Source of the DNA: Candidatus Woesearchaeota archaeon
GTDB lineage: Archaea > Nanobdellota > Nanobdellia > Woesearchaeales > JAFGLG01
Assembly (NCBI GenBank): GCA_016928155.1
Contig: JAFGLG010000002.1
Span: 80,412-144,411, forward strand
Direction of reading: 5' to 3'
Length of the DNA stretch: 64,000 nt
Shown: one piece after another, positions 23,384 through 64,000 of the stretch
Layout of the letters: each line of letters opens with the position of its first letter
How positions within the stretch are numbered: the stretch's first letter is position 1
Program-made: the position numbers and the translations under genes
The notes under the pieces: model-generated
Database searches by the model: none
Told to the model about the DNA's origin: nothing
What the model saw: only the letters and a program-made list of their open reading frames with translations

Positions 23384-26020
23384 TTACTTCTTCTTGCCTG
23401 GCTTCTCATCCTCAGGTGTCTTCAGGGACAGATAACCGACAACAGCTATGACAAGCACACCAAGGACCACAAGCAATGCAGTGATCTTCCTGGAAGCTGA
23501 GTCATCGATCTCCTCGACAACCTGAACATCCTCGACCTGAGGCTCTGGTTCAGCTACGGGCTCTGGAGCCGGAGCAGGGGCTTTCTTCCCTGCAATGGCG
23601 AACTCTGAGAGACCAGGAGCATCAGCCCAGAACATAGTGTAATCTGAGTTGCTTCCCTGAGATTGGGTCTCGAGCTCTGTCCAAGAGTCTGTATACCTAT
23701 AAAGCCTTATGTCCTCAGCCTTGAAGCCATTCTGCTGCATCCAGGCATTGTCCACCCTGAACCTGAACCTTGCTCCCTGTACGGCGGAGTCATCAAGATT
23801 CTCGTGCTCAACAATAAGATACCTGTAGACATTGCCTAATTCTGAGGCTTTCAATGGCTTGGCAGGAACACCTACAACCATATCAACCCTCTGGCTGGCC
23901 TTCTGGACCGAGACCTCGAGCTGAGTGACAGGAATGTCTGCCTTGTCGATGCTCATAGTAAGGAGGGACGGCGCACTGACCTCAGGATAATAGTGCTTTG
24001 CATTCGGATAGGTTGGCAGGAAATCTGTCTTAGGCCCTGTCCATCCTCCCTTCATGACCAAAGGAGATCCCCCTTTCATGACCAAAGGCGAACTGCCGCC
24101 TGATGAACATTTCTTGTCAGCACCATTGCAGTCCTCGTCAATGCCATTCCCGCAGATCTCATTCTGAGGCATCACGGCATCGCAGTCATTGTTCCATGCG
24201 CCTGCTGTGCAGGTCTGAGTGCCGAGAGTGCAGATGCCTATGTTGCCGACTCCGCAGTCCCTTGTGGCTGTTGATCCTACCGAGGCATTATCATCGTCGC
24301 AATCTGAAGCCAATACCAGACCATCCTGATCAAGGTCATCGTCCAATGTCGCAGGATTGCAGTCATCATCCAAACCATTGTATGGAGTCTCTGACTTCCC
24401 TGGATTTATGTTCGGATTGTCATCGTTGCAGTCAATGAGCACAGGCTCGCAGAATCCTGGAACAAATTGGTCATAACCATCACTGTCCCTATCGCATTCT
24501 GTATCCGATGTTGCAGGATTGCAGTCATCGTCAATGCCGTTGAAAGGGATCTCTGCTGCTCCTGGATTTACATCCGGATCTGTGTCATCGCAATCATAGA
24601 CGCTCAGACCAGAGCATGCAGCTTCAGGGACATAATTATCGCCATCAGCATCAAAGCCCTCATCAGTCTGGCCGTCGCAATCATTGTCCTTGCCGTCGCA
24701 GACGGACTCATCAGCCTGATAATCAACGCTGTGGGCTGCATAAGTGGCCTGTGTGCAGGCATCCCACTCACCATCTGTGCAAACATCCTTGACAGATCCT
24801 GCGCAGACACCGACCTGGTTGTCGCAAAGAGGAGCGACATCGCAGGAATTCACGACAGTGAACTGGACTGGATCGCTTGTTGTCTTGTATATGGATTGGG
24901 CTGAATCAGCAATCTCAACCCTGTACGAAACAACATCCTGAGGCAGGAACTTGCCGATATTTGCTGTGAAGTCAAACATGCTCTTTGTCATTGCCACAAC
25001 CTGCTGTGCACCGCCATTTACTGTGTACTTGACCACGCCAGACAGGGTGTCATGATAGCCGAAAGCAGATGCTCCGACAATCACATCATCATTATGGCCT
25101 GGCTCCAGAGGTGTGTGGGAAACTGAATTTATTATGGGCTTGAAGTGGCCATAAGCAAAGAATGCAGATACAGTCTTTGACTCAGAGCTTCCTGTCACAG
25201 TGGCCTGAAGCCTGAATTTACCTGCAGGCGTATCAGGTGTATCCTTCACCCAAATAGTTGCAGTGCAGTCAGGCTGGACAAGACCATTGATCTCCCAGCC
25301 TGTCCCTCTGGTAACTTCAGCACCGCTCGGATTGAAAAGCTTCAGTGCACAGGAAACCAAACCACCCTCATCTTCCCTAGCATCGCTTGCAATATTTATA
25401 TTCTGGGCAGGATCTGAACATGCAGGACCTGGCCAGCAAGTAGCTGGATCCACAGAATAATCATTCAATGTAAGCTGTGTGAAAAAAAGACCTGCCGGCG
25501 GATCATCACTGTCAGGAGTAGAAGGATCGCAATCATCATCCTTGCCGTTACCCATTATCTCGGTCTCACCCGGATTGACATCCGGATCATTGTCATTGCA
25601 GTCATCGCCACCATAAGCGACTGCATCATATCCGTCGCTGTCAGCATCAGTTATCTGGCCTGTGTTGATGGTGAAAGTGACGCTGTCACATGCATCTGGG
25701 TACTGGTCAAGAGTGCAGTAATTGGTGCCGCCTGATGAAGCCATCCAGACATTAACTGTGTGCTGACCATCAGCAAATGTCCCGGGAAAAACATATGTCT
25801 CAGTCAAACCATCAGCAAATGGTGTGGCTAGAAATACAGACGGATTACCATCCATCTGCACATACACCCGCGGAACATTGAAATCTCCTGTAAACTGGAT
25901 TGTGACAGTATCGATATCAAGAACCTCTCCCTGAGCAGGTGAGTCTATCGTGATGACAGCACCCAAGGCTGAGAAGCTCATGATTAACAATACACACAAA
26001 AACAATGCTAGTTTCCTCAT
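23384..26020 (-). CDS. giant secreted surface protein with many Asp/Cys-rich MopE-like putative metal-binding repeats and a C-terminal TM anchor
   Basis: Signal peptide; repeated DxDGDGxxxxDCDDxDPxxNPGAxExPxNGxDDDCN modules (at least 6); Pro/Glu-rich linker, TM helix, KKK tail; internal tandem 27-nt duplication encoding GGSPLVMKGG x2. Confidence 0.8.
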   Translation of the reverse strand: MRKLALFLCVLLIMSFSALGAVITIDSPAQGEVLDIDTVTIQFTGDFNVPRVYVQMDGNPSVFLATPFADGLTETYVFPGTFADGQHTVNVWMASSGGTNYCTLDQYPDACDSVTFTINTGQITDADSDGYDAVAYGGDDCNDNDPDVNPGETEIMGNGKDDDCDPSTPDSDDPPAGLFFTQLTLNDYSVDPATCWPGPACSDPAQNINIASDAREDEGGLVSCALKLFNPSGAEVTRGTGWEINGLVQPDCTATIWVKDTPDTPAGKFRLQATVTGSSESKTVSAFFAYGHFKPIINSVSHTPLEPGHNDDVIVGASAFGYHDTLSGVVKYTVNGGAQQVVAMTKSMFDFTANIGKFLPQDVVSYRVEIADSAQSIYKTTSDPVQFTVVNSCDVAPLCDNQVGVCAGSVKDVCTDGEWDACTQATYAAHSVDYQADESVCDGKDNDCDGQTDEGFDADGDNYVPEAACSGLSVYDCDDTDPDVNPGAAEIPFNGIDDDCNPATSDTECDRDSDGYDQFVPGFCEPVLIDCNDDNPNINPGKSETPYNGLDDDCNPATLDDDLDQDGLVLASDCDDDNASVGSTATRDCGVGNIGICTLGTQTCTAGAWNNDCDAVMPQNEICGNGIDEDCNGADKKCSSGGSSPLVMKGGSPLVMKGGWTGPKTDFLPTYPNAKHYYPEVSAPSLLTMSIDKADIPVTQLEVSVQKASQRVDMVVGVPAKPLKASELGNVYRYLIVEHENLDDSAVQGARFRFRVDNAWMQQNGFKAEDIRLYRYTDSWTELETQSQGSNSDYTMFWADAPGLSEFAIAGKKAPAPAPEPVAEPEPQVEDVQVVEEIDDSASRKITALLVVLGVLVIAVVGYLSLKTPEDEKPGKKK
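24045..24097. repeat. 27-nt tandem duplication inside the CDS (encodes GGSPLVMKGG-SPLVMKGG)
   Basis: CCCTTCATGACCAAAGGAGATCC / CCCTTTCATGACCAAAGGCGAAC read directly. Confidence 0.6.
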
Positions 26021-26320
26021 TTTCTACCCCCCAAAATCCCCCTAAAAGGGCCATATTGATTATTATTAAATAGTATCTCGATGGCTTTACTTGCTCATAA
26101 TAAAGCACGTTGAGTACTAGTGAGGAAGGAATAAGTTGGCATATATAAAGATTGTTGAATTACAGGCTAGAAAGCCAAAATTCTGGGGTTTTACCACTTG
26201 TTAGGGAATATGAATTTTTCAAAACTTGACAAGCCATGATAACCCTGAAATCTGACTCCTAAAAGGAAATCAAGAAAAATATACATTAATATTAAATATT
26301 AGTGTATACTTTTTTGTGGC

Positions 26321-26530
26321 ATGAAAATTGAGAAAGTCATCAAAGAAATCCAACAGATACTTGCAAAAGATACCAGAGGATTGACAATCCAAGAACTTTC
26401 TGAGATAACCAAAGTGTCAAGGATAACAACATCCATGGCACTGATGAAGCTAGAAGGGGCAGAAACCATAGTTGTCCGCCCAGTCGGAAACTGCAAACTC
26501 CACTATCTAAAGGAGAAATACCCGAAATGA
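26321..26530 (+). CDS. small winged-helix DNA-binding protein (69 aa)
   Basis: LTIQELSEITKVSRITTSMALMKLEGAETIVVRP; 4-nt overlap with the next giant gene. Confidence 0.6.
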   Translation: MKIEKVIKEIQQILAKDTRGLTIQELSEITKVSRITTSMALMKLEGAETIVVRPVGNCKLHYLKEKYPK

Positions 26531-29500
26531 GCAGAAAAAAAATCATGGAAATTGCATTATTTATTATAATAATACACTTAATAATATATTCATCTGCAGC
26601 ATTGCACCCTAATGATTACTGGACAGAATCAAACAATGGCATTGTGAGCTGGAATGTGAGAAGCATAGCAGTTGACCATCAGAATTCTTCAATAATATAT
26701 GCATTGACACAGGCCAATGGAGTATATAAATCAGTGGATGGAGGAGAGACATGGAACCCAAAAACAAATGGGATCCCCGCTGATCCGAGCGTCACATGGG
26801 GCCACCTGTTCGGCAACCAGCTGACAATGGATCCGAGCAACAGCTCGATATTATACACGAACTTCGGAGGCATGCCTTTCAGGACAGCAGATGGAGGAGA
26901 GAGCTGGCAGAACATCACAGAAGGGATAGACACATGCCTGCCGCAGCATGCAATAGCTGGTGTTGCAGTGGATCCACAGAACAGCAGCCACATATTCGCA
27001 GCATTCACAGTATCAAGCTGTCCGGGGGGGATATATGAATCAGATGACAGCGGTGCGACATGGACACATATCGCGTCATATTCTGGATCAGGGGACCTCA
27101 ACAATGATGCATGGGCATTGACTGTTGATCCTACAAACAGCTCAAGATTATACAGCGCACCGCAATACCTGGGATTCCTGTACTCGACCGATGGAGGGCA
27201 TCACTGGACAAGGAATTCTCCAACAGGAGCAACATTGATACCTGGAATGGAAGTCGAGGTGCATCCAGAGAATACAAGCAGAATAATTTTGGGACAGGAC
27301 ACAGGCCTCTATGTATCACAAGATCATGGCATCAGCTGGACAGATAAGACTGATGTCATGGGCGGAGCAGTCTATGACATCGACTTTGCACCATCAGACC
27401 CCAGCATAGGATATGCAGTCGGTATGGGTGGAATAGCAAAATCAACAGATGGAGGTCTCAGCTGGTCAAAGATGAATGATGATGAAAGCCTTTCACTGAG
27501 AAGCGTCGCAATCGATCCAGATGACCCAGAAAGGATATACCTCGCTGACCTTGGAAAGGGAGTATTCATGTCGACAAATTCAGGAGAAGACATCGAGCAG
27601 AAGAATTCCGGGCTGCCAATCTCACGCGATATAAGAGCAACAGCGATAGCGCCTAGCGACCCGACAATATATTACATATCTGTGATCGGGAATGGATTCT
27701 ACAGGAGTGAGGACAAAGGGGAGAGCTGGACACTCATGAGCGTGCATGGAGATGTGATAAACACAATCGACATAGAAGTTGACAACAATGACCCAGAAAT
27801 CGTATTTGCAGGAATCACTAACATATACAAATCGACTGACGGTGGCATCACATGGAATGAAACACTTGAATCTGGAGATGATACAATAACAGACATTCAA
27901 ATGGACCCAAATGACAATTCCATCATATTTGCCACGAGCTCAAGATGGCCCTCTTCATCCTTGATATATAAATCAGAAGACAATGGGGATACATGGGGGA
28001 CAAAAACCGGATTCAGCCTTGTAACAAGAAGCGTTACACCGATAGTCATAGATGAGAGCAACAGCTCAAGGATATATGTAGGGACATACAATGGTCTCCG
28101 CAGAAGCATGGATGGGGGAGAGACATGGAGCCTGATAACCAACGGACTAACAGGCTATGGAACATGGATAGATGGAATTGGGATATACCCTGAAAATCCA
28201 AGCAGGCTATACCTCACTGCAAGAGACCATAACCTCCATTATTCAGATGATTATGGAAGCAGCTGGGCCACAAAAACCAATACTGCATCCTACCCCGGCA
28301 GGATAATAATCGATTGGCATAACCCTGATGATTTCTATGTCTTCACGCTCTATTCCTGGATGAAGTTCCTTGCAAATGCATCATCAAAAATATATATGCC
28401 CACAACAGGAATCAAAGGTGATGCCAAACGCTTCAGGGAATCTGCACTGCAAGACCCATTGAACCCGAACAGATTCATAAGCGGAGACTTCAACCAGGGA
28501 TTCATGGTATACAATAGGTATGAAGACAGAAAAGTCTCATATATGCTCCCAAAAAGGGTGATCCAGAACCATACACTCTATATCTCAGGGACAGTTGAGG
28601 ACAAACTGGATGGTGATGTGGACCTGATGGTCAATGACAGCGGGACAATCCTGCTCAACAAAACTGTTCCTGCTGAAAACGGTCACTTCGAATATCAATT
28701 CCTTGTCAATGCCAGTATCCCTATAGGGCAGAAGAAAATAACGTTCTATTTCCACAATCTCAGCGCAGGAGCCGACGGGTATAATGAGGCATATTTCACA
28801 GTGGATGATCTCAACATCCCCACCAATCACATGCCGCAGACATCTGGCTTCAACATGAGCTATGACTATACCTTAGACTGGGTGCGAGCAGGAGATTTCA
28901 ATTATTATGATGAAGACGATGATGAAGAAACTGGCTCCATAAAGGATATCTACATAAACAATGCGTTCCTGAAATCAGAGAGCTCCAGCCAGACTGCACT
29001 CATCCACTTTGATGGGAGCCCGAATACAACAGAAAACGACCCTTATGACTACAATGTGGATGGAGAATTTGATTATGCAACAGGAAAATTCGGACAGGCC
29101 ATCCATTTCGGAAACTACAGCTGGGTCAACTATGACTCCAGAGATGTCATGGATCTCCATCAAGGAACCATCGAGTTCTGGGTGAATACAGACTGGGATT
29201 GGGACAACCTGACAGAAGATGTATGGTTCATATGGTTCTCAGGATACTACGGGGACTATATCTATCTCCTGTGCAATGCAACAACAGACACCTTGGACTA
29301 TATCCTATATTCCAACAGCACAAAAAGTAACATCAGCATAGACACGTCAGACTGGACCAAAGACGAATGGCACCATATCGCAATCACATATAACCTATCC
29401 GGCAGCCATGAAAATAATTCCATGGAGATATTTGCAGACGAGAGATACAGTTCAGAATCAGGCATATACCCTATCAGGACAATAGGATTATATGACGCGA

Positions 29501-30471
29501 TCGGATTCGGCCATCATCACTATTCAATGGATGAACTCAGGATATCAGATGCAGTGCTTGATCCCACAGTAATAAACTACAGCAGGCACAGGGACACAAC
29601 ATTCTATGATGATGAGATTCTCGTCGACAATAGTCATTATGGTGGATTGGACAACATCACGCTCAAATACTGCCCTTATGATGGAACGATGTATGGGGAA
29701 TGCTTGAACAGGACTGTGCTTATCAACCAGCCGCCGATTGCGGAAAGCATACTCCTGAATCCCGAAACTGTTCTGCCAGATGGGACACTGACCTGCTATG
29801 GGGCTGCATCTGATCCTGAAGGACAGCCAATGACATATTATTACCAATTCTACATCAATTCAATCGGACAAGGATGGAGCCTTAGCAGTCAATTCGACTG
29901 CGATGGTGTATGCAACGAGCTCGATGATATATACTGCGAATTCTACGCGAATGACAACGAGTGGAACACATCCATACTGCAGAGCAATAATGCCACAGTG
30001 GTCAGTGACTCAGATGGAGACACCGGCGGAGACACCGGCGGAGGCTCTCCGCTCGCGCTCAAGGGAGGAGGGGGCGGAGCGTATTATGCCGCCGAAGCTG
30101 CAACAAACGAGACCTGCACTGAAGACTGGAGCTGTGGAGAATGGAGCGAATGCATGGAGGGTATCAGAATCAGGGAATGCTTTGATACAAATGACTGCAA
30201 GACAAGTGTTAATATCCCGGCGACACAAACTGCATGCGAAGGAGAACCTCCTATATTCATAGAAAAGGCAAAAGGGACAACAGAAGAATTTGAGACAATA
30301 ATGGGACTGAAAGAGATAAATTACCACAACCTTATAATGTGGACAGCATCAATGGCAACAAGCGCCCTGATAATAATATTCATAATACTGGCACATGCAA
30401 GACCGCCGAAGAACAAAATCGATGAGATAAAGAAAGAGATGGAAGAATTTGGAATAAAATCAGCCAAATAA
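26527..30471 (+). CDS. giant surface protein: at least 11 BNR/Asp-box repeats (beta-propeller), a LamG/concanavalin-like domain, a Cys-rich module and a C-terminal TM anchor
   Basis: Repeated S-x-D-x-G-x-T/S-W (SVDGGETW, TADGGESW, SDDSGATW, STDGGHHW, SQDHGISW, STDGGLSW, SEDKGESW, STDGGITW, SEDNGDTW, SMDGGETW, SDDYGSSW); signal peptide; hydrophobic helix then basic tail at the C-terminus. Confidence 0.85.
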   Translation: MSRKKIMEIALFIIIIHLIIYSSAALHPNDYWTESNNGIVSWNVRSIAVDHQNSSIIYALTQANGVYKSVDGGETWNPKTNGIPADPSVTWGHLFGNQLTMDPSNSSILYTNFGGMPFRTADGGESWQNITEGIDTCLPQHAIAGVAVDPQNSSHIFAAFTVSSCPGGIYESDDSGATWTHIASYSGSGDLNNDAWALTVDPTNSSRLYSAPQYLGFLYSTDGGHHWTRNSPTGATLIPGMEVEVHPENTSRIILGQDTGLYVSQDHGISWTDKTDVMGGAVYDIDFAPSDPSIGYAVGMGGIAKSTDGGLSWSKMNDDESLSLRSVAIDPDDPERIYLADLGKGVFMSTNSGEDIEQKNSGLPISRDIRATAIAPSDPTIYYISVIGNGFYRSEDKGESWTLMSVHGDVINTIDIEVDNNDPEIVFAGITNIYKSTDGGITWNETLESGDDTITDIQMDPNDNSIIFATSSRWPSSSLIYKSEDNGDTWGTKTGFSLVTRSVTPIVIDESNSSRIYVGTYNGLRRSMDGGETWSLITNGLTGYGTWIDGIGIYPENPSRLYLTARDHNLHYSDDYGSSWATKTNTASYPGRIIIDWHNPDDFYVFTLYSWMKFLANASSKIYMPTTGIKGDAKRFRESALQDPLNPNRFISGDFNQGFMVYNRYEDRKVSYMLPKRVIQNHTLYISGTVEDKLDGDVDLMVNDSGTILLNKTVPAENGHFEYQFLVNASIPIGQKKITFYFHNLSAGADGYNEAYFTVDDLNIPTNHMPQTSGFNMSYDYTLDWVRAGDFNYYDEDDDEETGSIKDIYINNAFLKSESSSQTALIHFDGSPNTTENDPYDYNVDGEFDYATGKFGQAIHFGNYSWVNYDSRDVMDLHQGTIEFWVNTDWDWDNLTEDVWFIWFSGYYGDYIYLLCNATTDTLDYILYSNSTKSNISIDTSDWTKDEWHHIAITYNLSGSHENNSMEIFADERYSSESGIYPIRTIGLYDAIGFGHHHYSMDELRISDAVLDPTVINYSRHRDTTFYDDEILVDNSHYGGLDNITLKYCPYDGTMYGECLNRTVLINQPPIAESILLNPETVLPDGTLTCYGAASDPEGQPMTYYYQFYINSIGQGWSLSSQFDCDGVCNELDDIYCEFYANDNEWNTSILQSNNATVVSDSDGDTGGDTGGGSPLALKGGGGGAYYAAEAATNETCTEDWSCGEWSECMEGIRIRECFDTNDCKTSVNIPATQTACEGEPPIFIEKAKGTTEEFETIMGLKEINYHNLIMWTASMATSALIIIFIILAHARPPKNKIDEIKKEMEEFGIKSAK

Positions 30472-55550: not shown

Positions 55551-58103
55551 TTATTTCTCCTTCCTCATAAGCTCTTCAAGACGCTTGTGGATATTCATTA
55601 TCGATTCCTGGGCAACACTCCTGTATGAATAGATATAATTGCCCAGCATGCCCACAATGACAACCAATGCTACTGTAGCCATCAGGACCTGATTCTTTGT
55701 CTTGTGGTCAATGCCACTGAACCATTCCTTTATCTCTGCACGGCCCTGCTCTGAGAAAAGCATCCCGAGATTCGGGAACTTCCTTGCAGTCGGCCTAGGA
55801 GCCTCCTGCTCAGGAACAGGTTCAGGCTGCTTCACAGGAGGAGGAGCACCTGTATCAACACGCTTGGCAGGAGCGGATTCCTTTATGATAGATTTATCAG
55901 CATCTTCTGTATCATCTTCTTCATAACTTTTTGGACAGTCCTCAGGACAGGTAGTTGAATCCTCATTACTATCACATGTCCCATCACCGCAAGTCCCTAT
56001 CCCTGGTTCGTAATCGCCACCGCCACCGCTACTGCAATCTGCAGGACATGAGCTTGAAGTCTCTCCTGAACCACAATAATTGTTTCCGCATACCTCAGTG
56101 AAACTCCTTGTCTCACTATTCCCTGAATGACCACCCTGCGCAATGCACCTTATGTCCCAGTAACGGTCTACTATTGTCGGGGTATAAGTTATGAGTGTCG
56201 TGACATCCTCCTGTGTTGAGACATTTGTGGCCTTCTTGACGCCATTGACATACAAGCTGCAATTTGTCTCATCCAGCCTATCAGAAATGCTGAAGACAAA
56301 TTTATTAGTCGTGGTATTCCAGAGCACATCATCATCGGGCCAATCCAGGTACACACAGAATCTGTCTCCCAGCAGGCTATATGAATTATTCACCCCTCCC
56401 TCAGATATGTACTTCGTATTATGGCAGATCAGATTGTCGCTGACAGTCGTGTTATAAGAATCACGCGTCAAGATCGCAGTTGATGAATTCTGGATCGTAT
56501 TTGATGTTATGGATGCGAATGTCGAGTTCTGCAGATAGACACCCTGATTCACATCAATTATATTCTCAGAAATCTCCAGATGATCAGTCCTATTAAGGAA
56601 AAAACCAAATGTATAATTATGCAGTGCACAGTCATGCAAGGATATATTCGTCAGATTGATAATATGGAATGCAGAGCCTGAACCGTCACCTGTCAAGGAT
56701 GCGCCATTGCATTCCACGGTGATTCCTGACAAGGTGATGTTGAATATCCCGTCAAGATTCTTGTCAACCAGACTATAAGACCCAAGACAGAGAGTGATGC
56801 TCCTGTTGACAAGCAGATCATCATATGGCGAGAGGGTGTCAGAATCATAAGGGGCACAGTCTGTCGGATCAGGGTCGCCGTCACTGTCTGAATCAAGGGC
56901 GGTCAAGGAGATATCCAATGAGTAATCTGAAATGTTAAATCCGGCAGAATTCATGGCATAACCACCTGCAGTTGTATTCATGGTATATAAACCCACATAC
57001 AACGCGTCAGATACATTCACAAAAAATCCGGTCAAGAAAGGCACATCCACATACCCATTTGAATCTGATATCTTGGAAAATGCCACTCTTCCCAATCCAT
57101 CCCATGCAACCACATTTGCATCCCCGACAGGCAATCCTTCTGTGTCATTCACATGAATATCAACATATTCTTTTACATGCACCTCATAATCCCCCTGTTC
57201 TATATCAATTTTGGAATTATTCACTGATGTGTTCACCAATGAAAGCACATGGGTTCTTGCGAACGAATTCGGATTTGTGATATAGACATCCTTAGTGGCA
57301 CCACTGAATGAACTATCAAATGCAGATATATTGCCGAATTGCCCTATACCATTCAGGCCATACCTACTTCCTGCAGCCTGAATATTATGCATCTGCATTG
57401 AATTGAACCTACTGATCGGATTTGATGATGCACTAATGGCTATATTGATCCCGTCTCCGACATTCGCTATCGCCACAGAATTCTTAAATACAACATCACT
57501 TATCACATATCCGAATTGGATTGCTGCATAAGCAACATGAATCCCACTATATATGGAGGTAAGGTTGTCACCATAAAAGTTATTAGTGCCAATAATAATG
57601 GGATAATTATTGCCAGAGGAATTCACAAAGACATTTGACATGTTCAGGCTGTTGTTTAGGTCAGTACCCAAAAACTCCATTGTGCTGTCTGTCCTTATGC
57701 CAGAAACAAAGAAATCAATAGGCTTATACACATAAATGCTTTTGCTGTAATTGTATATATCACAATCAAGTATTGTCACATTATCTGAACCAGATTCTGA
57801 ATAGATCGCATATCCTGACATATTGCCCCGAATCAGAGAACCATTGCAGTCGAGCACTATGTCGCTTGCATTGATTATCATAACACCATTGTTGCCGGTG
57901 TCATTCACCTGATAGACAAGGCCGCAGAGGACTGTGTCATCGTTTATGTAGGTGTCATCATCGGTAATATTAATGCATGCCAAGGCAGAGGTCGAGAATA
58001 CAAGAGTGAATACCATTGCAGCAATCAACAGTGCAAATCTTGACATGCTTCTCATCTTCTTCAACCTCTTTTTCGAATAATCCTGCATCATCATCTTCTC
58101 CAT
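55551..58103 (-). CDS. secreted right-handed parallel beta-helix (PbH1/NosD-like) repeat surface protein with a Cys-rich module and a C-terminal TM anchor
   Basis: Signal peptide; many short Asn/Gly/Ile-rich turns typical of beta-helix; CGNNYCGSGETSSSCPADC...CGDGTCDSNEDSTTCPEDC; Pro/Glu linker, TM helix, basic tail. Confidence 0.8.
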   Translation of the reverse strand: MEKMMMQDYSKKRLKKMRSMSRFALLIAAMVFTLVFSTSALACINITDDDTYINDDTVLCGLVYQVNDTGNNGVMIINASDIVLDCNGSLIRGNMSGYAIYSESGSDNVTILDCDIYNYSKSIYVYKPIDFFVSGIRTDSTMEFLGTDLNNSLNMSNVFVNSSGNNYPIIIGTNNFYGDNLTSIYSGIHVAYAAIQFGYVISDVVFKNSVAIANVGDGINIAISASSNPISRFNSMQMHNIQAAGSRYGLNGIGQFGNISAFDSSFSGATKDVYITNPNSFARTHVLSLVNTSVNNSKIDIEQGDYEVHVKEYVDIHVNDTEGLPVGDANVVAWDGLGRVAFSKISDSNGYVDVPFLTGFFVNVSDALYVGLYTMNTTAGGYAMNSAGFNISDYSLDISLTALDSDSDGDPDPTDCAPYDSDTLSPYDDLLVNRSITLCLGSYSLVDKNLDGIFNITLSGITVECNGASLTGDGSGSAFHIINLTNISLHDCALHNYTFGFFLNRTDHLEISENIIDVNQGVYLQNSTFASITSNTIQNSSTAILTRDSYNTTVSDNLICHNTKYISEGGVNNSYSLLGDRFCVYLDWPDDDVLWNTTTNKFVFSISDRLDETNCSLYVNGVKKATNVSTQEDVTTLITYTPTIVDRYWDIRCIAQGGHSGNSETRSFTEVCGNNYCGSGETSSSCPADCSSGGGGDYEPGIGTCGDGTCDSNEDSTTCPEDCPKSYEEDDTEDADKSIIKESAPAKRVDTGAPPPVKQPEPVPEQEAPRPTARKFPNLGMLFSEQGRAEIKEWFSGIDHKTKNQVLMATVALVVIVGMLGNYIYSYRSVAQESIMNIHKRLEELMRKEK

Positions 58104-61100
58104 CTTGTGCTCCAGGAGATCTTACCATCAGGCCCTATCTTCATGAAGTACTTTATCCTCTTCATCTCCTTCTTCAGCTCAAACGGAATCTCCTTCTTGG
58201 TATAGACCCTCGGCCTGAAATGCTTACTTGCAGCAACAAGAAGGTCAGATGTCTCCCTGCTTATGCTGTGCTTCTTCGACAGCTCATGGGATATCCTGCT
58301 CTGCTCAGGCGTGAGCTTATCAACTCCCAAATTCTTTATGCCTTTATGAGGACGCACAACACGGACTTTAGGCACCCAAGCAAGCTTCTTGAGCTTCAGC
58401 AGAGCATCAAATGAGGCCACATCCATGAATGCCTTAGGCGCCATGACACCAGGGGACAGGATGAACAGCAGAATCGCTATCGTGAGAAGCACTGTGCCCA
58501 TGAACCTGTTAGGGAGAGGAGTAGGCTCTTCTATCACAAAGCCCCTGTCAGCCTCATGCCCTCCATCTTTGGTCTCTGGCTCCTCGCGGATCCCTGAATC
58601 AAAGAAACCGCCCTGCTTATGCTCTGGCTCATGACCAGGGCAATAACCGCAATCCTGAGGACAGGACTCACATGTCTCTCCGTCATTGCATATCTCATCA
58701 GGGCATTCAGGGAAATAAGTCAGATGCACGCCGCCACCGCCCTGGCAAACACCGCAGTCCTGAGGACAGTTCGAACATGTCTCAGAGCCGAAACATATCC
58801 CGTTCCCGCAGTGCTGGACAGGCCTGGGGCCAAGATCATTGACTGTGCCTGTGACATCAGCACCATTTGTGAAATTATAAGGATAATCCAGACCGGAATC
58901 ACCATAGCCATCTGAATCTGAATCAGAAATATCCAGCGGAGCCGCAAGGATGTCGCTCCAATAGTTGCCTCTCGGCGTCCCTGTCGAATTATCATAGAAC
59001 AGATTAGAGCTGTTGTCTGCAGAGGCCTGCAGGGTGTTTCCCTGGAAAGTGTTTGCGTGAATAATATTATCTACTGACAATGATGTTATGTTAATGCCCA
59101 CAAGGTTCTCAATCATCAGATTGCCCCTGATGATGTTGAGATCAGAATCCTCAAGCAGGATGCCCTCTGCGTCATTATACCTCACAGTGTTGTTGGTGAC
59201 ATTATTAGAATCAGCGCTGTCAAGATGGATGCCCGGTCCTACGCTGTATTCCACAATATTATCGCTGATATCATTGCCTGAAGAAGCCACATAGATGCCT
59301 GAATCAGCCCCCTGGCTCAGGATGACACTGTTGCCTGTCACAGCATTCCCGCTAGAATAGAGCACAATGCCATCATTAGAGCAATTCATGAAAGTGTTAT
59401 CCTCGATCACTGCGCCGTCCATATACACAATGACTCCATCACCGGCATTCTCAATGTAATTGCCCTGAAGCACAAAATCAGAGGTGTACACCTCAAGGTT
59501 GGCCATCAAAGAGCCGCCAAAATCATAGCCGCCGTCGATAAGTCTGGAATTCTTTATCAATAAGCTCGAGCCATCATCTGCGGTTATCACAAAGCCAGTC
59601 TTATGATACCCTCCGGGAGTGCCCGGATTCCAATTGCATCCACTGACAGACAGGCAATTCAGCTCGTTCCTAAGCTCATTACATGATAATGGCCGACATG
59701 GAACTTGCCCGATGGGACAGAACCCACTTGTCTGGACACATCCCAGAGGACATGACCTGGCACAACCTGGACATAATGCTGTACTTAAACCGCTGCAAAA
59801 ACCATCTGTCCCCGGGACATAGACTGTAGGATTCAGAGTTGTGATTATGGATGCATCATCCTCTGTGAGCGGATCATTGTCTGCATCATCAAGAATCAAA
59901 GTGCCTCCGCTCTGGACAGTCACACCGAATTCTCCTGGATAAGAGCTGTCGATATAAATCGTGGTGTTGCTCAGATTGAGCGTCCCGCCGGATTGTATCA
60001 CAATATCATAATCCGCAGTACATATCCCATGACTGATGCTGCAGACACCATCGATAATTCCCGAGTTGTTGTAAAGGCAGAAACAATTATCTGTGATGAC
60101 AAGATCTATGACAGTGCCCTCAGAGATGGTCATGACAGAGTCAATACCGACGAGGCTGACATTCGGCTGGAAACCCGCCTTTGACGCGACTATCCTGTGG
60201 GGATTCATATCAGAGAAAGAACCGTCATTCTCCACCATGTATTCATAAGACATGAATTCAGATGTGATCCCTGCAATTGAGGTCAGACCTGAATATTTCT
60301 GAACAACAGATGAATCAGGCTCATATACCTCGACTGAAGCGTCTACGATGTAATTGCTAGACTGATCCATGACACGCACCTGCGAGGTCCACTCCTGGAG
60401 CTGCTGGCCAATGATGTTCGAGCCTGAACAGAAATCATTTGAGGCATTCATATCGGACCATGCAGTGACCGGCTCTGCGTCCAATGAATGGACGGCATAT
60501 TCCTGATTATGGCAGATAGTGTTGTCCAGCACCACAATATTCGGAGCCAGCAGATAATCATGATTGAATATTCCGCTGCCTCCATTGGAATTGAGGGTGC
60601 TGTTGGTCAGATTTGCCAATGAACCAAGTGAGAAAACACCATGACCTGTGCTGTGAGAGACGGAATTCATGACAAAAGAGGCGCTGGAATTCTCCAGATA
60701 AACACCGTCCAATCCGCTCCTGTTGATATCATTATCAGTCAGGTTCGAATATGAATCCACGAGAACAACACCATAAAACAAATTACCCAGGATCATGTTG
60801 CCTGTAAGATTGAAATCCGAATCCAACAGATATACACCATACCGCACATTTCCGGAGATGTTATTTCCTATCAGATAATGGCCTGATCCCACTGCATACA
60901 CGCCATCGGCACCATTAACAGTGATATTATTATCTTCCAGACTCGAAGAAGAGCCTGTCAGCCTGACACCGCTGACATCATTAGAATAGATGAGATTACC
61001 TGAAAGATTGCACCTGGAATCAGCAGAATCCACACCATCCCCTGTGTTGTCAATGATATGATTGCCTATTAAAGAGGCATTTGATACTGAAAGCGACACA

Positions 61101-63100
61101 CCATCTCCAGCATTCCAAATAATATGATTATCAGTGAGGTTGAAATATGAATCAAGAAGACTTACCCCAGCCCCATCGTTATGAGAGATGGTATTCCCTG
61201 AAAGATTGCACCTTGATCCGGCCGAATTAATCCCAATCGCGCCATTAGAAGAGACATTATTATCCTTGAACACCAATCCAGAGACTTCAATATAGATGCC
61301 ATGGATACCACCGCCGATTATTGAATTGCCATCAAACACAGCACCCTCTGTCGAGGACACAAACAAGGAATAACTCACCCCGCCCACCAGAGTATTATTC
61401 CTGAAGATGCTGTCATCACCGGAATACACCCTCATGTTCATCTGGTTATCGCTGAAACTGTTATGGGCAAACAAATCCCCGAGAGTACTGTTCACATCCA
61501 TCCCAGACAATGAGCTTCCTTTCAGCGTGTTGCCCAGGAACGATGAATTGCTGTGCATGAGATTGTTATCCATTAAGATGCCTATGGAATTATTTTCAGC
61601 TGTGTTATCCGATACTGTCAGATTCCAGACATCCCTGAAAGAAAAGCCTGAATAATCATTCTCATATGCAGAATTCCCTGAGATGAGGCTGTCATTGCAT
61701 CCGGAAAGAAAGAACCCATCTGCTGTATGATCATAAAATGAATTGCCTGATATCTCCATATCCACCAAGCCAGATCCGTACAAGCCTCCCCTATTATTCG
61801 AGAATATCTCGTTATCGATGATACTCCCGGACGAATCAAACACCTTCAGACCATAAAATTCATCATCCCATAACCGGTTATTAATCACTGAAATGTTATC
61901 TGAAATGTTTATATAAACGCCGCTTGAACCCAAAGATAGATGACCATCTTCTGAATTGCTGTATATATCATTGGATGAAATGACTGAATCATCAAAATTA
62001 ATAAAATGCATCCCAAAAAAGCGGTTATCCCACACATCATTATCATGGATATAGGTCTGCGAGGAACCAGTCCCACGTATCCCATATTGTGAGTTACTAA
62101 AAATATTGTTTCGGGTTATATTTGTGTTATCGGCATAATCAAGGTTAATCCCATTATTGCAGTCTGAAATATTATTCTCAATTAAGGCATTATGGTGAAT
62201 AGTATTAGTTATTCTGATCCCAGAATTAACACCATATATTGTGTTTGATCTTATTGTCACATTGTTTGAATTTATCCCAAATTGCATACCCTCTCCTGTC
62301 CCATTATGGATCCTGTTCCCGGAAACAAGGCTATCTGTCACATTAGATACAAAGATACCAAAACCGACAAAACTTGATATGTTATTATCAATTAAATTCA
62401 GATCAGGGCAGTTGTGTATCTGCACTCCCCCCCCAGACAGATTATATAACCTGTTGCCTTCTATTATTGGATTATCCGAATCATGTAGGATAAAAGCATA
62501 AACGACATCGAATATCTCATTCCTCTTAAGCACAACAGAATCAACATACCTGGCATATAATCCATGGTAAGGCGCTTGTGTCTGATTACCCATCCTGCTC
62601 AAAAAGGAATCCTCCATCCTGAGATTACCATACCACACCTGCATATAAGCAGAGTAATCCTGATCATATGTCGATATGAAAGAACCATCCAGTATTGTCA
62701 GATTGCCACCATTGGAATACATACCATATTCACAGTCAAATGAGTTGTTGAAAAGTATGGTCGTGTTTGACATCCCCAGTATGCTGCTGGATACTCTGAG
62801 ATCACCATTCAGGATTATCCCTGTATCCTCACAAAAGGTGTCAGAATTGACAATCCAGTCTCCGGAAGCAGGTGGCTCGATGCCTGTGCAGTCACCTGCA
62901 TCATACAATACAGTGAAACCACTGCCTGATGCAGAAGAGCCTGTCATGATGGACCTGCCTGTATGGAGGTTTGCAGGCCTCTCCACGACAATGGTCTGAT
63001 CGGCTGCATTGCGGTCTGAATCGAACATGAAAGGTGCGCTGAATGCAAGAACTGCAAGGACAACCAGGAGAATCATGCTTAAAGTCCTCATTTTATCCAA
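58091..63100 (-). CDS. giant (about 1670 aa) parallel beta-helix repeat surface protein with Cys-rich CxDGxCxxxETCxxCPxDC modules, a TM anchor and an about 120-aa cytoplasmic tail
   Basis: Dozens of N-x-I-x-x-N/G-x-G-I repeats (NNISxNxxxGI...); CGNGICFGSETCSNCPQDCGVC / CNDGETCESCPQDCGYC; the likely real start is ATG at 63091 (MRTLSMILLVVLAVLAF signal peptide), overlapping the RHH stop. Confidence 0.85.
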   Translation of the reverse strand: MDKMRTLSMILLVVLAVLAFSAPFMFDSDRNAADQTIVVERPANLHTGRSIMTGSSASGSGFTVLYDAGDCTGIEPPASGDWIVNSDTFCEDTGIILNGDLRVSSSILGMSNTTILFNNSFDCEYGMYSNGGNLTILDGSFISTYDQDYSAYMQVWYGNLRMEDSFLSRMGNQTQAPYHGLYARYVDSVVLKRNEIFDVVYAFILHDSDNPIIEGNRLYNLSGGGVQIHNCPDLNLIDNNISSFVGFGIFVSNVTDSLVSGNRIHNGTGEGMQFGINSNNVTIRSNTIYGVNSGIRITNTIHHNALIENNISDCNNGINLDYADNTNITRNNIFSNSQYGIRGTGSSQTYIHDNDVWDNRFFGMHFINFDDSVISSNDIYSNSEDGHLSLGSSGVYINISDNISVINNRLWDDEFYGLKVFDSSGSIIDNEIFSNNRGGLYGSGLVDMEISGNSFYDHTADGFFLSGCNDSLISGNSAYENDYSGFSFRDVWNLTVSDNTAENNSIGILMDNNLMHSNSSFLGNTLKGSSLSGMDVNSTLGDLFAHNSFSDNQMNMRVYSGDDSIFRNNTLVGGVSYSLFVSSTEGAVFDGNSIIGGGIHGIYIEVSGLVFKDNNVSSNGAIGINSAGSRCNLSGNTISHNDGAGVSLLDSYFNLTDNHIIWNAGDGVSLSVSNASLIGNHIIDNTGDGVDSADSRCNLSGNLIYSNDVSGVRLTGSSSSLEDNNITVNGADGVYAVGSGHYLIGNNISGNVRYGVYLLDSDFNLTGNMILGNLFYGVVLVDSYSNLTDNDINRSGLDGVYLENSSASFVMNSVSHSTGHGVFSLGSLANLTNSTLNSNGGSGIFNHDYLLAPNIVVLDNTICHNQEYAVHSLDAEPVTAWSDMNASNDFCSGSNIIGQQLQEWTSQVRVMDQSSNYIVDASVEVYEPDSSVVQKYSGLTSIAGITSEFMSYEYMVENDGSFSDMNPHRIVASKAGFQPNVSLVGIDSVMTISEGTVIDLVITDNCFCLYNNSGIIDGVCSISHGICTADYDIVIQSGGTLNLSNTTIYIDSSYPGEFGVTVQSGGTLILDDADNDPLTEDDASIITTLNPTVYVPGTDGFCSGLSTALCPGCARSCPLGCVQTSGFCPIGQVPCRPLSCNELRNELNCLSVSGCNWNPGTPGGYHKTGFVITADDGSSLLIKNSRLIDGGYDFGGSLMANLEVYTSDFVLQGNYIENAGDGVIVYMDGAVIEDNTFMNCSNDGIVLYSSGNAVTGNSVILSQGADSGIYVASSGNDISDNIVEYSVGPGIHLDSADSNNVTNNTVRYNDAEGILLEDSDLNIIRGNLMIENLVGINITSLSVDNIIHANTFQGNTLQASADNSSNLFYDNSTGTPRGNYWSDILAAPLDISDSDSDGYGDSGLDYPYNFTNGADVTGTVNDLGPRPVQHCGNGICFGSETCSNCPQDCGVCQGGGGVHLTYFPECPDEICNDGETCESCPQDCGYCPGHEPEHKQGGFFDSGIREEPETKDGGHEADRGFVIEEPTPLPNRFMGTVLLTIAILLFILSPGVMAPKAFMDVASFDALLKLKKLAWVPKVRVVRPHKGIKNLGVDKLTPEQSRISHELSKKHSISRETSDLLVAASKHFRPRVYTKKEIPFELKKEMKRIKYFMKIGPDGKISWSTRWRR

Positions 63101-63846: not shown

Positions 63847-64000
63847 AACAACACCTCCTACTTCTTGATCATCCATCATTCACTCAAATCAAAAAAACAT
63901 CATATCTCCGGCGGGCAGAAGACATGCCAGCCCATGCTATCATTCCCCTTAACAAAAGGGCAGTCATCATGGCTGCAGTCGATATGCTCCCAGCAAATCT

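What the first reader, a model, noticed from the sequence alone, without database searches (positions are those of the whole stretch)
23384..30471. Second case of a small DNA-binding gene overlapping a giant surface-protein gene, divergent from a MopE-like repeat protein
The 69-aa wHTH gene (26321-26530) overlaps by 4 nt the 1314-aa BNR-propeller/LamG surface-protein gene. This parallels the RHH-giant coupling at 63 kb. It is divergently transcribed from an 878-aa protein built from at least six Asp/Cys-rich DxDGDG…DCDDxDP…NPGAxE…NGxDDDCN modules. These resemble the putative copper/calcium-binding motif of MopE-type proteins. Two independent 'tiny regulator plus huge cell-surface protein' units in 64 kb suggest a recurring, probably lineage-specific architecture for controlling host-attachment or S-layer-like proteins.
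Basis: partly seen in the sequence, partly recalled or inferred. Interest (0 to 1): 0.55.

Follow-up and report, generated by a model that had tools for sequence, protein, structure and literature searches.

The report
Tiny regulator heading giant surface-protein gene
In this tiny symbiotic archaeon (Woesearchaeota) and its relatives, a very conserved 67-70 residue DNA-binding protein, with a conserved palindrome in its own promoter, sits directly in front of large, highly variable cell-surface protein genes, giving a first testable handle on how these organisms control likely host-attachment proteins.

Summary
A 69-aa winged-helix gene (26321-26530) overlaps a 1314-aa membrane-anchored BNR/sortilin-type protein gene (26527-30471) by ATGA. 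The divergent 878-aa protein matches Pfam PF11617 (MopE-type motif), but with 4 modules, not six or more.

The small protein is not a local oddity. It belongs to a family 52-83% identical across Woesearchaeota, Pacearchaeota and Nanoarchaeota. In 26 of 34 evaluable species-level genome loci, the gene directly downstream encodes a protein of at least 400 aa with an N-terminal hydrophobic anchor. The background rate in the same loci is 7%, and about 26 of 37 junctions overlap or abut. The partners are mostly unrelated to each other.

About 30 of 37 loci also share a promoter layout: a TATA box, then the palindrome TATAyACTAGTGTATA at the predicted transcription start. The window has TATACATTAAT-N7-ATTAGTGTATA at 26280-26308, its only copy in 64 kb.

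The 49-aa ribbon-helix-helix gene at 63 kb belongs to a second family that behaves similarly and has its own promoter repeats.

Best reading: self-regulated operons in which a minimal transcription factor, probably a repressor, gates a costly surface protein. DNA binding is inferred, not shown. I found no description of this in the literature. The divergent MopE-like neighbour is not a conserved part of the unit.

The parts
26321..26530 (+). 69-aa minimal winged-helix (wHTH) protein. It belongs to a DPANN-wide family. Conserved features include DTRGLTIQELS, VSRIT..MALMKLEG (the recognition helix) and GNCKLHYLK (the wing).
   Evidence: ORF and translation. 353 homologues at 68-83% identity. 25 invariant columns in alignment A1. 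AF2 pLDDT 89.8 with H3-16, H23-30, H34-46, E50-55, E58-63. Best PDB folds are ArsR/SmtB/CadC and MarR/ZitR cores.
26280..26308 (.). Operator-like palindrome TATACATTAAT-N7-ATTAGTGTATA. It lies between the TATA-like element and the start codon of the wHTH gene, ending 12 nt before the ATG.
   Evidence: It is the only site in the 64-kb window. Exact AYTAGTGTATA gives 18 hits in the fetched loci, nearly all just upstream of the wHTH gene. The degenerate half-site occurs at 19.1/kb within 150 nt upstream against 0.86/kb elsewhere. 32 of 37 loci match the TATACACTAGTGTATA consensus at 11 or more of 16 positions.
26275..26283 (+). Putative TATA-like element (AAAAATATA). It overlaps the left arm of the palindrome. 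The predicted transcription start is near 26306-26308.
   Evidence: Inferred from the alignment with the TTTATATA boxes of related loci, which end about 22-24 nt before the palindrome, and from the usual archaeal TATA-to-start spacing (general knowledge). Not mapped experimentally.
26511..26530 (+). Translational-coupling junction: AGGAG (26511-26515), then ATGA (26527-26530), where the start of the large gene overlaps the stop of the wHTH gene.
   Evidence: Sequence. The same -4 overlap occurs in 18 of 38 junctions (37 loci plus the window), and about 26 of 37 loci overlap or abut.
26527..30471 (+). 1314-aa type-I membrane surface protein. In order: N-terminal signal or anchor, BNR/sortilin-type beta-propeller region, a possible LamG-like domain, a Cys-rich module, a C-terminal transmembrane helix and a short basic tail.
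   Evidence: Sortilin-Vps10 121.4 bits, BNR, and Laminin_G_3 23.4 bits (below cut-off). NF045728 183 bits. Hydrophobic termini in the translation. No T5+ run in 3.9 kb of the sense strand.
23384..26020 (-). Divergent 878-aa surface protein. In order: signal peptide, 3 complete and 1 degenerate PF11617 (MopE-type) Asp/Cys modules, a CBM_56-like region, a PGF-pre-PGF domain and a C-terminal transmembrane anchor. It is a neighbour, not a conserved member of the unit.
   Evidence: The upstream neighbour is not conserved across loci. The operator lies proximal to the wHTH gene, 260 nt from this gene's start.
63088..63237 (-). 49-aa ribbon-helix-helix protein, the head of the second unit in the window.
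   Evidence: ORF. 257 homologues at 57-84% identity, which sources name RHH/CopG. 14 invariant columns in A3. The family's promoters carry (A/G)TATGTA repeats at 16.2/kb against 0.36/kb elsewhere.
55551..63091 (-). 1666-aa right-handed beta-helix/NosD-type protein (58091-63091; the ATG at 63091 makes an ATGA overlap with the RHH stop). It is followed by an overlapping 850-aa NosD-like protein (55551-58103).

Best explanation
The 69-aa protein is a minimal, stand-alone winged-helix transcription factor. It most likely binds, as a dimer, the conserved palindrome that spans the TATA box and transcription start of its own promoter (26280-26308). This would most likely repress a bicistronic transcript.

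The large surface-protein gene has no room for a promoter of its own. Its ATG overlaps the regulator's stop codon and an AGGAG lies inside the regulator gene. It would therefore be transcribed and translated only together with the regulator.

The result would be negative feedback that caps and steadies expression of a very costly membrane-anchored extracellular protein. An unknown signal would have to lift the repression.

The same regulator-plus-operator cassette is reused across Woesearchaeota and Pacearchaeota in front of unrelated large surface proteins. A ribbon-helix-helix family with its own operator does the same job at other loci, including 63 kb in this window.

**Shown:** gene order, overlap, conservation, fold, the promoter motif and its specificity.
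**Inferred:** DNA binding to that motif, the direction of regulation, co-transcription, and the role of the surface proteins in attachment.
For: - **Fold.** A confident wHTH model is closest to ArsR/SmtB and MarR repressor cores. The predicted recognition helix and wing are nearly invariant.
- **Operator.** Exact AYTAGTGTATA is confined almost entirely to the 150 nt upstream of the wHTH genes. The degenerate half-site is enriched 22-fold there. It occurs once in the 64-kb window, as an inverted pair.
- **Position.** The palindrome begins about 22-24 nt after the TTTATATA box and ends 3-15 nt before the ATG in most loci. From general knowledge, this is where archaeal repressors usually act.
- **Absence where expected.** Loci in which the wHTH gene abuts or closely follows an upstream gene, so that no promoter is expected, lack the motif (L027, L003, L024). 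The second wHTH copy behind the large gene in L047 also lacks it.
- **Coupling.** An ATGA or other overlap occurs at about 26 of 37 junctions.
- **Partners.** 26 of 34 are large and carry an N-terminal hydrophobic anchor, against a 7% background. Their domains are typical of surface proteins: Beta_helix 8, NosD 7, DUF4215 5, LamG_3 4, plus Ig-like domains and propellers. Most are not homologous to each other.
- **Dimer use.** Natural tandem wHTH-wHTH chains (P0247, P0249) fit use as a dimer.
- **Parallel family.** The RHH family repeats the whole pattern with a different motif.
Against: - There is no experimental or transcript evidence. The transcription start is predicted from spacing only.
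- The protein lacks the dimerisation helices of ArsR and MarR proteins, so how it would dimerise is unknown.
- The left arm of the palindrome is less conserved than the right arm. Binding could therefore be asymmetric or by monomers.
- A site at the transcription start does not exclude activation.
- Identity this high across orders is unusual for a local regulator and could point to an extra constraint, such as contact with the basal transcription machinery.
- About a quarter of the loci have other partners: a 186-aa HTH protein, a Schlafen/AlbA_2 protein, or cytoplasmic-looking proteins.
- Some wHTH copies lie behind a large gene rather than in front of it.
Confidence: 0.6

Rival explanations
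1. The wHTH protein binds the same motif but acts as a dedicated activator or promoter-specificity factor. It would be needed to fire the promoters of large surface-protein operons (positive autoregulation, an on/off switch).
For: The motif also overlaps the TATA box (TTTATATACTAAT), so the protein could cooperate with TBP/TFB. Several copies per genome share one operator (L027/L030 from one genome and L047), which would suit coordinated or switch-like control. The very high conservation fits contact with the conserved basal machinery.
Against: From general knowledge, archaeal activators usually bind upstream of BRE/TATA. Here the best-conserved arm lies at the predicted start site, downstream of the TATA box. 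Good TTTATATA boxes are already present.
Confidence: 0.15
2. The small protein and the large membrane protein form a two-part trans-membrane sensing device. The state of the large ectodomain, for example contact with a host cell, would control the availability or activity of the wHTH protein, as in membrane-tethered one-component regulators.
For: A distant family member, P0313 (2119 aa), has the wHTH domain fused in frame to a transmembrane helix and a large ectodomain. Its promoter has its own palindrome, CTAACATTGATGTTAG. Translational coupling would give fixed stoichiometry and synthesis in the same place.
Against: Only one fusion, on a single contig, turned up among the 150 listed representatives. 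The cytoplasmic N-terminal tail of the window's large protein is only about 8 residues, leaving little to bind. The partners are unrelated proteins, which argues against a specific protein-protein interface.
Confidence: 0.1
3. The conserved sequence acts in the mRNA, as a 5' hairpin that affects stability or translation. The wHTH protein would then act on RNA, or not at this site at all.
For: The palindrome is predicted to lie at or just after the transcription start, so at least part of it would be transcribed. The window's version can form a 13-bp A-U-rich hairpin of -9.9 kcal/mol, z = -2.3.
Against: In L022, L025 and L029 the hairpins are only -3.3 to -4.1 kcal/mol with z between -0.7 and +0.45. 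Arm positions do not co-vary: position 3 is A in 14 of 32 loci while its partner, position 14, stays A in 28 of 32. Further half-sites overlap the TATA box, upstream of any transcript. There is no Rfam match.
Confidence: 0.05
4. The small protein is a processivity or anti-termination factor. It would load at the start site and allow RNA polymerase to finish very long genes, analogous to RfaH/LoaP-type factors at long bacterial operons.
For: It is specifically associated with very long genes. The conserved site lies at the start of the transcript. Weak fold matches to the winged-helix domains of RNA polymerase III subunit Rpc34/39 appear among the hits.
Against: The 1314-aa gene has no T5+ run in 3.9 kb, so it already avoids the oligo-T signals that terminate archaeal transcription. 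Partners as short as 425 aa occur. No homology to NusG/Spt5 was found.
Confidence: 0.05
5. The linkage has no functional meaning. The wHTH protein would be a general nucleoid or housekeeping protein that happens to lie next to large genes.
For: It is extremely conserved, like a housekeeping protein. Its neighbours in the window are housekeeping genes: aIF5B, a radical-SAM protein and PEP-utilising enzymes. Small archaeal wHTH proteins of the Lrs14 family are now discussed as nucleoid-associated proteins (titles and abstracts listed).
Against: The association holds with unrelated partner proteins across species-level genomes at 76% against 7%. Overlapping reading frames are the rule. The motif is specific to its own promoter. 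Several copies occur per genome, each next to a large gene.
Confidence: 0.05

Closest known systems
ArsR/SmtB and MarR families of winged-helix repressors (for example SmtB 1r23, CadC 1u2w, ZitR 5yi3)
   Same: The same three-helix plus beta-wing DNA-binding core, with TM 0.75-0.84 over 57-67 residues. From general knowledge, these proteins typically bind palindromes in their own promoters and autoregulate, as proposed here.
   Different: The protein is only 67-70 aa. It lacks the N- and C-terminal dimerisation helices and the metal or ligand sites of those families. All sequence-profile scores are below family cut-offs: HTH_5 14.6/22, MarR_2 15.6/27, NF033788 16.8/55. It is restricted to DPANN archaea and tied to large surface-protein genes.
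Lrs14/AbfR1 family of Sulfolobales (small archaeal wHTH proteins linked to biofilm, adhesion and motility control)
   Same: A small archaeal wHTH protein linked to cell-surface behaviour. From general knowledge and the abstracts listed, Lrs14 autoregulates.
   Different: No family membership: NF040939 scores 14.2 bits against a cut-off of 90, and the PDB Lrs14-like chain 6cmv gives E = 0.39. Lrs14 proteins are about 100-140 aa, are not translationally coupled to large genes, and are now viewed partly as nucleoid proteins.
Single-domain TrmB-family regulator OxsR of Haloferax volcanii (PMC9426492, abstract)
   Same: A transcription factor made of a single winged-helix domain, with a functionally important cysteine. 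The DPANN family has an invariant Cys58 and His61 in the wing.
   Different: No detectable sequence relationship was found here. A thiol-sensing role for Cys58 is pure speculation. The genomic context is different.
CopG/Arc/MetJ ribbon-helix-helix repressors (for the second unit at 63 kb)
   Same: A protein of about 45-50 aa with the beta-strand/helix/helix pattern. Tandem and inverted short repeats lie next to the start codon. From general knowledge, these repressors typically autoregulate.
   Different: The window protein has no Pfam hit at E <= 0.01. This family heads large surface-protein genes, ABC transporters and P-type ATPases rather than plasmid copy-control or toxin-antitoxin genes. 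It often occurs as RHH-RHH tandems.
MopE-type 'putative metal-binding motif' proteins (Pfam PF11617) and archaeal PGF-pre-PGF surface proteins (for the 878-aa neighbour)
   Same: PF11617 scores 99.9 bits with 4 repeats. TIGR04213 PGF-pre-PGF scores 67.5 bits. The protein has a signal peptide and a C-terminal anchor.
   Different: No PGF tripeptide precedes the C-terminal helix, so there is no evidence for archaeosortase processing. Metal binding is untested. This protein is not a conserved partner of the wHTH unit.

Membership tests
Winged helix-turn-helix DNA-binding fold (superfamily level) | Three-helix bundle with a helix-turn-helix, followed by a two-stranded beta wing | tested here: met
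   The AF2 model has pLDDT 89.8 with H3-16, H23-30, H34-46, E50-55 and E58-63. Foldseek gives probability 1.00 and TM 0.75-0.84 to ArsR/MarR cores.
ArsR/SmtB family | Profile score above the curated cut-off (PF01022 HTH_5; NF033788) | tested here: not met
   HTH_5 scores 14.6 bits against 22. NF033788 scores 16.8 against 55.
ArsR/SmtB family | Flanking alpha1 and alpha5 helices that form the dimer interface and the metal sites | tested here: not met
   The protein ends right after the wing. There is only one helix before the HTH and none after the wing. The structural targets are 95-108 aa against 69 aa here.
MarR family | Profile score above cut-off (PF01047, PF12802), with N- and C-terminal dimerisation helices | tested here: not met
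   MarR scores 14.3 against 24.6. MarR_2 scores 15.6 against 27. No dimerisation helices are present.
Pfam HTH_11 (PF08279) | Score at or above 25 bits | tested here: inconclusive
   The window protein scores 17.8 bits. Many close homologues carry a precomputed PF08279 hit.
Lrs14 family (NF040939) | Equivalog score at or above 90 bits | tested here: not met
   14.2 bits.
Autoregulated repressor-operator unit | A conserved inverted repeat in the regulator's own promoter, between the TATA box and the start codon | tested here: met
Autoregulated repressor-operator unit | The protein binds that repeat and lowers transcription | not testable with these tools
   This needs gel-shift or footprinting assays and in-vitro transcription.
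Sortilin/BNR beta-propeller proteins (1314-aa protein) | Profile score above cut-off, with Asp-box repeats | tested here: met
   PF15902 scores 121.4 against 33, and PF02012 47.6 against 27. NF045728 scores 183 against 175.
LamG / Laminin_G_3 (1314-aa protein) | PF13385 score at or above 27.6 bits | tested here: not met
   23.4 bits, E = 7.1e-5, residues 862-971. Four other partner proteins do carry strong LamG_3 hits.
PF11617 Cu-binding_MopE motif (878-aa protein) | Profile score at or above 27 bits, with repeated DxDxDG...DC(D/N)DxD...NPGxxE...NGxDDDC modules | tested here: met
   99.9 bits with 4 stretches. The regular-expression count gives 3 complete modules and 1 degenerate one.
PF11617 Cu-binding_MopE motif (878-aa protein) | Actual copper or calcium binding | not testable with these tools
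   Needs biochemistry.
PGF-CTERM / archaeosortase substrates (878-aa protein) | PGF-pre-PGF domain, followed by a PGF motif, a transmembrane helix and a basic tail | tested here: inconclusive
   The PGF-pre-PGF domain is present at 67.5 bits. A transmembrane helix and a basic tail are present, but no PGF tripeptide precedes the helix.
Ribbon-helix-helix (CopG/Arc/MetJ) for the 49-aa protein | Pfam RHH profile hit | tested here: inconclusive
   No Pfam family at E <= 0.01. One homologue carries PF01402, and sources name relatives RHH/CopG. The sequence pattern MKERITITxDKELLxWLD fits a strand-helix start.

The most novel reading that the evidence does not exclude
Woesearchaeota and Pacearchaeota may use a small set of near-invariant leader cassettes. 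Each would consist of a tiny DNA-binding protein (wHTH, RHH or possibly GerE-type) plus its own operator, and could be placed in front of interchangeable large adhesin-like genes. Several copies in one genome share the same operator, so the regulators could cross-talk. This could give coordinated, hierarchical or mutually exclusive expression of alternative host-attachment proteins, a transcriptional analogue of surface-antigen switching. The rare fusion of the wHTH domain to a large membrane protein hints at feedback from the cell surface.
Probability: 0.2. Interest if true: 0.8.

Novelty: new variant of a known kind. Interest (0 to 1): 0.62.

Why it matters
DPANN archaea are thought to live attached to other cells. 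Their large, fast-changing surface proteins are the prime candidates for host recognition, but nothing is known about how these proteins are controlled, and almost none of these organisms can be grown.

A regulator that is nearly identical across many species, with a short and well-defined DNA site, is unusually tractable. The protein can be synthesised and its binding tested in vitro. The motif can be used to predict which surface-protein operons are under this control in any metagenome-assembled genome. Metatranscriptomes can then be read for on and off states.

The pattern also gives annotators a rule. It flags real small genes that gene callers and Pfam thresholds tend to miss, and it marks the true starts of large genes.

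Tried and rejected
- **Mobile or viral origin.** No relative of the wHTH protein was found in 2.9 million IMG/VR contigs. The neighbours in the window are housekeeping genes.
- **Paralogues in the window.** tblastn found no second copy of either small protein in the 64 kb.
- **Known RNA element in the intergenic region.** No Rfam hit reached threshold. The two weak hits lie elsewhere and are far below their gathering scores.
- **RNA hairpin reading.** Disfavoured by the weak energies, the z-scores and the lack of co-variation.
- **Divergent MopE-like protein as part of the unit.** The upstream neighbour is not conserved.
- **The shared GGSPLxxKGG peptide as a general sorting signal.** It occurs only in the two large proteins that flank the wHTH gene in this window.
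- **The sigma-70 promoter and terminator scan.** Uninformative for an archaeon.
- **PDB sequence-profile search.** Nothing better than E = 0.013 (MJ223, 1ku9), so no solved close relative exists.
- **Literature.** Four full-text searches and targeted term searches ('find') in two papers turned up no description of this gene pair or motif. The winged-helix marker OG0000296 in the 2026 Nanobdellota preprint is highly divergent (minimum pairwise identity 13.2%) and was not tied to surface proteins, so it is probably a different protein.
- **Not attempted.** A homologue search for the 1314-aa or 878-aa proteins, because the diversity of partners was already clear from 37 loci. Dimer or DNA-complex modelling, because no tool for it was available.

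Full report
**What is in the window**

The three reading frames named in the finding exist exactly as stated:
- an 878-aa ORF on the minus strand (23384-26020);
- a 69-aa ORF (26321-26530, +);
- a 1314-aa ORF (26527-30471, +).

The start codon of the large gene overlaps the stop codon of the small one in the sequence ATGA. An AGGAG lies 12 nt upstream, inside the small gene. The exact 69-aa sequence is on record as a hypothetical protein of a Candidatus Woesearchaeota archaeon. The surrounding genes are ordinary chromosomal ones: aIF5B, a radical-SAM protein and PEP-utilising enzymes. No tRNA lies in the window, and no relative of the small protein was found in viral contigs.

**The three proteins**

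*The 69-aa protein.* Its HTH profile hits are all below threshold. With an alignment of 31 homologues, AlphaFold2 gives a confident model (pLDDT 89.8) of three helices and a two-stranded wing. Its best structural matches are the DNA-binding cores of ArsR/SmtB/CadC and MarR/ZitR repressors, with TM 0.75-0.84 relative to the query. It lacks the extra helices those families use to dimerise and to bind ligands. It fails the curated cut-offs of ArsR, MarR and Lrs14. I therefore file it as a wHTH fold and not as a member of any of those families.

*The 1314-aa protein.* It has an N-terminal hydrophobic segment, a BNR/sortilin-type propeller region (PF15902 121 bits; NF045728 183 bits), and a LamG-like stretch below threshold (23.4 against 27.6 bits). 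A Cys-rich module, a C-terminal transmembrane helix and a short basic tail follow. This is the layout of a type-I anchored surface protein.

*The 878-aa protein.* It matches PF11617 (the MopE-type putative metal-binding motif) at 99.9 bits with four repeats. By regular expression there are three complete modules and one degenerate one, not six. It also has a marginal CBM_56 match, a PGF-pre-PGF domain and a C-terminal anchor.

**The small protein is a conserved family**

A search of 5.8 billion proteins returned 353 relatives of 66-88 aa at 68-83% identity among those listed. Where a source names them, they come from Woesearchaeota, Pacearchaeota or Nanoarchaeota. In an alignment of 31 of them, 25 columns are invariant. 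These include most of the predicted recognition helix (VSRIT..MAL.KLEG) and the wing (GNCKLHY).

A profile search of 1.84 billion cluster representatives found about ten core clusters and a tail of roughly 330 more distant small wHTH proteins. The tail includes two-domain tandem versions and PAS-fused versions. These top hits were selected for similarity to the query, so the identity values are biased upwards. The genome survey below spans 52-78% identity.

**The coupling is recurrent and far above chance**

A scan of one genome per species (GTDB) gave 37 loci. I called the gene directly downstream of the wHTH gene in each.

- *Large anchored partners:* 26 of the 34 loci that could be judged. 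Each partner is at least 400 aa, up to 2533 aa, with an N-terminal hydrophobic segment. L029 is counted by homology.
- *Junctions:* 18 of the 38 junctions (37 loci plus the window) have the same -4 overlap. About 26 of the 37 loci overlap or abut.
- *Background:* among 310 other genes in the same loci and the window, 22 (7%) meet the size-plus-anchor criterion. The binomial P is about 1e-23. The loci are related organisms, so this number overstates independence.
- *Partner diversity:* this argues that the signal is not one inherited gene pair. An all-against-all BLAST shows one sub-family with a shared N-terminal module of about 400 aa and many unrelated proteins. The window's BNR protein has essentially no homologue among them.
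- *Partner domains:* right-handed beta-helix/NosD, DUF4215, LamG, Ig-like, PQQ and sortilin propellers, and Hint.
- *Exceptions:* a 186-aa HTH protein (three loci), a Schlafen/AlbA_2 protein, and two related proteins of about 500 aa without an N-terminal anchor.
- *Copy number:* some genomes carry several copies. L027 and L030 come from one genome. L027 and L047 each have a wHTH gene both before and after a large gene.

**A conserved operator-like motif**

Lining up the 110 nt upstream of the wHTH genes shows a shared layout. A BRE/TATA-like aaacaTTTATATA often runs into ACTAAT. About 22-24 nt later comes the palindrome TATA(C/T)ACTAGTGTATA(G). A purine-rich GAGG and the ATG follow within 3-15 nt.

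- 32 of 37 loci match the 16-mer at 11 or more positions. The right arm, CTAGTGTATA, is the most conserved part.
- Exact AYTAGTGTATA occurs 18 times in the fetched loci, almost always just upstream of the wHTH gene.
- A degenerate half-site occurs at 19.1 per kb in the 150 nt upstream, against 0.86 per kb elsewhere.
- The window has TATACATTAAT-N7-ATTAGTGTATA at 26280-26308. Its left arm overlaps a TATA-like AAAAATATA and its right arm ends 12 nt before the ATG. This is the only occurrence in 64 kb.
- Loci in which the wHTH gene abuts or closely follows an upstream gene (L027, L003, L024), and the second copy behind the large gene in L047, lack the motif. That is expected if the motif belongs to the promoter.

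With the usual archaeal spacing between the TATA box and the transcription start (general knowledge), the palindrome sits on the start site. An RNA-hairpin reading is weak. Predicted stems in three other loci are -3.3 to -4.1 kcal/mol with z-scores near zero, the arms do not co-vary, and no Rfam family matches.

**The second unit at 63 kb**

The 49-aa ORF (63088-63237, -) has 257 relatives at 57-84% identity, which sources name RHH/CopG. An in-frame ATG of the 1669-aa beta-helix protein at 63091 makes an ATGA overlap with it, and an 850-aa NosD-like gene follows.

- In six contexts read from assemblies, five show RHH followed by proteins of 1048-2567 aa, sometimes with a second large gene behind. 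One shows an ABC transporter.
- In 80 metagenome loci, 24 of 41 evaluable partners are large with an N-terminal anchor, and 12 are at least 1000 aa. Seven are ABC ATPases and a few are P-type ATPases. This family is therefore linked to envelope proteins more broadly.
- RHH genes often come as tandem pairs.
- Their promoters carry a different shared motif. A TATA box is followed by CTACATACT, and tandem (A/G)TATGTA repeats lie next to the ATG. The density is 16.2 per kb against 0.36 per kb elsewhere. The window's copy is degenerate.
- One locus also shows a 63-aa GerE-type HTH gene in front of an 1132-aa gene.

**How it most likely works**

*Shown:* a near-invariant minimal wHTH protein, a near-invariant palindrome at its own promoter between the TATA box and the ATG, overlapping reading frames with a large anchored extracellular protein, and reuse of this cassette with unrelated partners.

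*Inferred:* the protein binds the palindrome, probably as a dimer. Natural tandem wHTH-wHTH chains fit this. Binding would repress the bicistronic transcript, so that the costly large protein is made under negative feedback and released by an unknown signal. I put this at about 0.6.

*Rivals:*
- activation from the same site (0.15);
- a membrane-coupled sensing pair (0.1), suggested by one distant in-frame fusion of a wHTH domain to a transmembrane helix and a 2000-aa ectodomain with its own promoter palindrome;
- an RNA-level element (0.05);
- a processivity factor for long genes (0.05), weakened because the 1314-aa gene contains no T5+ run at all;
- incidental linkage of a nucleoid protein (0.05).

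**What is not part of it**

The divergent MopE-like protein is a neighbour only. In 25 of 31 loci the upstream gene is on the same strand, and it is usually unrelated. Ten loci instead share a different upstream gene: a 570-710 aa membrane protein that starts MAYKKYIxKNGKxYGPYxYHS. The operator lies at the wHTH end of the 300-nt intergenic region.

**Comparison with what is known, and novelty**

In mechanism, this looks like a classical autoregulated winged-helix (or RHH) repressor-operator unit. The closest functional parallel in archaea is the Lrs14/AbfR1 group, which is linked to adhesion. Family membership fails for ArsR, MarR and Lrs14 on scores and on architecture.

Full-text searches of 8 million papers and preprints found no description of this gene pair, of the motif, or of small regulators heading large DPANN surface-protein genes. 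Published work does note large Woesearchaeota- and Pacearchaeota-specific extracellular proteins (PMC8204110).

I rate it a new variant of a known kind: a known regulatory logic, in a new protein family and a lineage-wide modular arrangement. Interest is moderate to high (0.62). The mechanism is probably conventional, but it offers a concrete, testable entry point into the regulation of host-attachment candidates in an uncultivated phylum.

Noticed in passing
window 24043-24097 (-) and 30040-30066 (+): The peptide GGSPL(V/A)(M/L)KGG occurs twice in tandem in the 878-aa protein (a 24-nt tandem repeat) and once in the 1314-aa protein, each time just before the C-terminal part. It was found nowhere else in the window or in the other fetched loci, apart from L001, the Logan copy of this same region. 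It could be a linker, a processing site or a modification site.
   Followed up: partly
L002, L004, L006, L013, L022, L025, L028, L029, L034 (about 2 kb upstream of the wHTH gene); L107:5950-6069: A conserved three-gene cluster. A 570-710 aa membrane protein starts MAYKKYIxKNGKxYGPYxYHSxRVxGKV. It is followed by the wHTH gene and then by a large protein with a shared N-terminal module (AFQxxSSSYxxxxKxDFG). In L107 an RHH gene precedes a protein of this KYI type. The cluster is absent from the window.
   Followed up: partly
L049:4001-10360 (protein P0313): A distant relative of the wHTH domain is fused in frame to a transmembrane helix and an ectodomain of about 2000 aa. The promoter has its own perfect palindrome, CTAACATTGATGTTAG. 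It is seen on a single contig only, so an assembly error is not excluded.
   Followed up: partly
L047:2449-10121; L027:1684-6657: A wHTH gene lies both before and after a large gene (2421 aa and 1507 aa). The trailing copy has no operator. In L027 it is frameshifted and followed by another RHH-like gene and a membrane ORF. This suggests tandem arrays of small-regulator-plus-large-gene modules.
   Followed up: partly
L039:8001-8269, L040, L064, L070, L103 and about 20 other RHH loci: RHH genes frequently occur as two adjacent paralogues (RHH-RHH) in front of the large gene. The 44-48 aa 'unknown' ORFs called between the RHH gene and the large gene are second RHH copies.
   Followed up: partly
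L039:11669-15281: A 63-aa GerE/LuxR-type HTH gene lies directly in front of an 1132-aa gene. This may be a third type of small-regulator-plus-large-gene unit.
   Followed up: no
window, whole length: There is a strong strand asymmetry. Genes on the + strand have almost no runs of five or more T in the sense strand, while genes on the - strand have 0.5-5 per kb. The AT skew of the + strand is positive throughout nearly the whole window. This could reflect replication-strand bias or selection against oligo-T terminators on one strand.
   Followed up: no
window 63481-63879 (-): A 132-aa response-regulator-like receiver protein is encoded just upstream of the RHH-plus-large-gene unit, on the same strand.
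   Followed up: no
wHTH residues C58 and H61 (window 26492-26503): An invariant Cys and an invariant His lie in the wing strand (GNCKLHY) of the core DPANN family. More distant relatives have Ala in place of the Cys. This might be a redox or metal-sensing site.
   Followed up: no
L026: about 6310-6680 (587-950 nt after the wHTH start): The large partner gene contains 120-nt tandem repeats, seen as the motif TTAATGCATA recurring every 120 nt.
   Followed up: no
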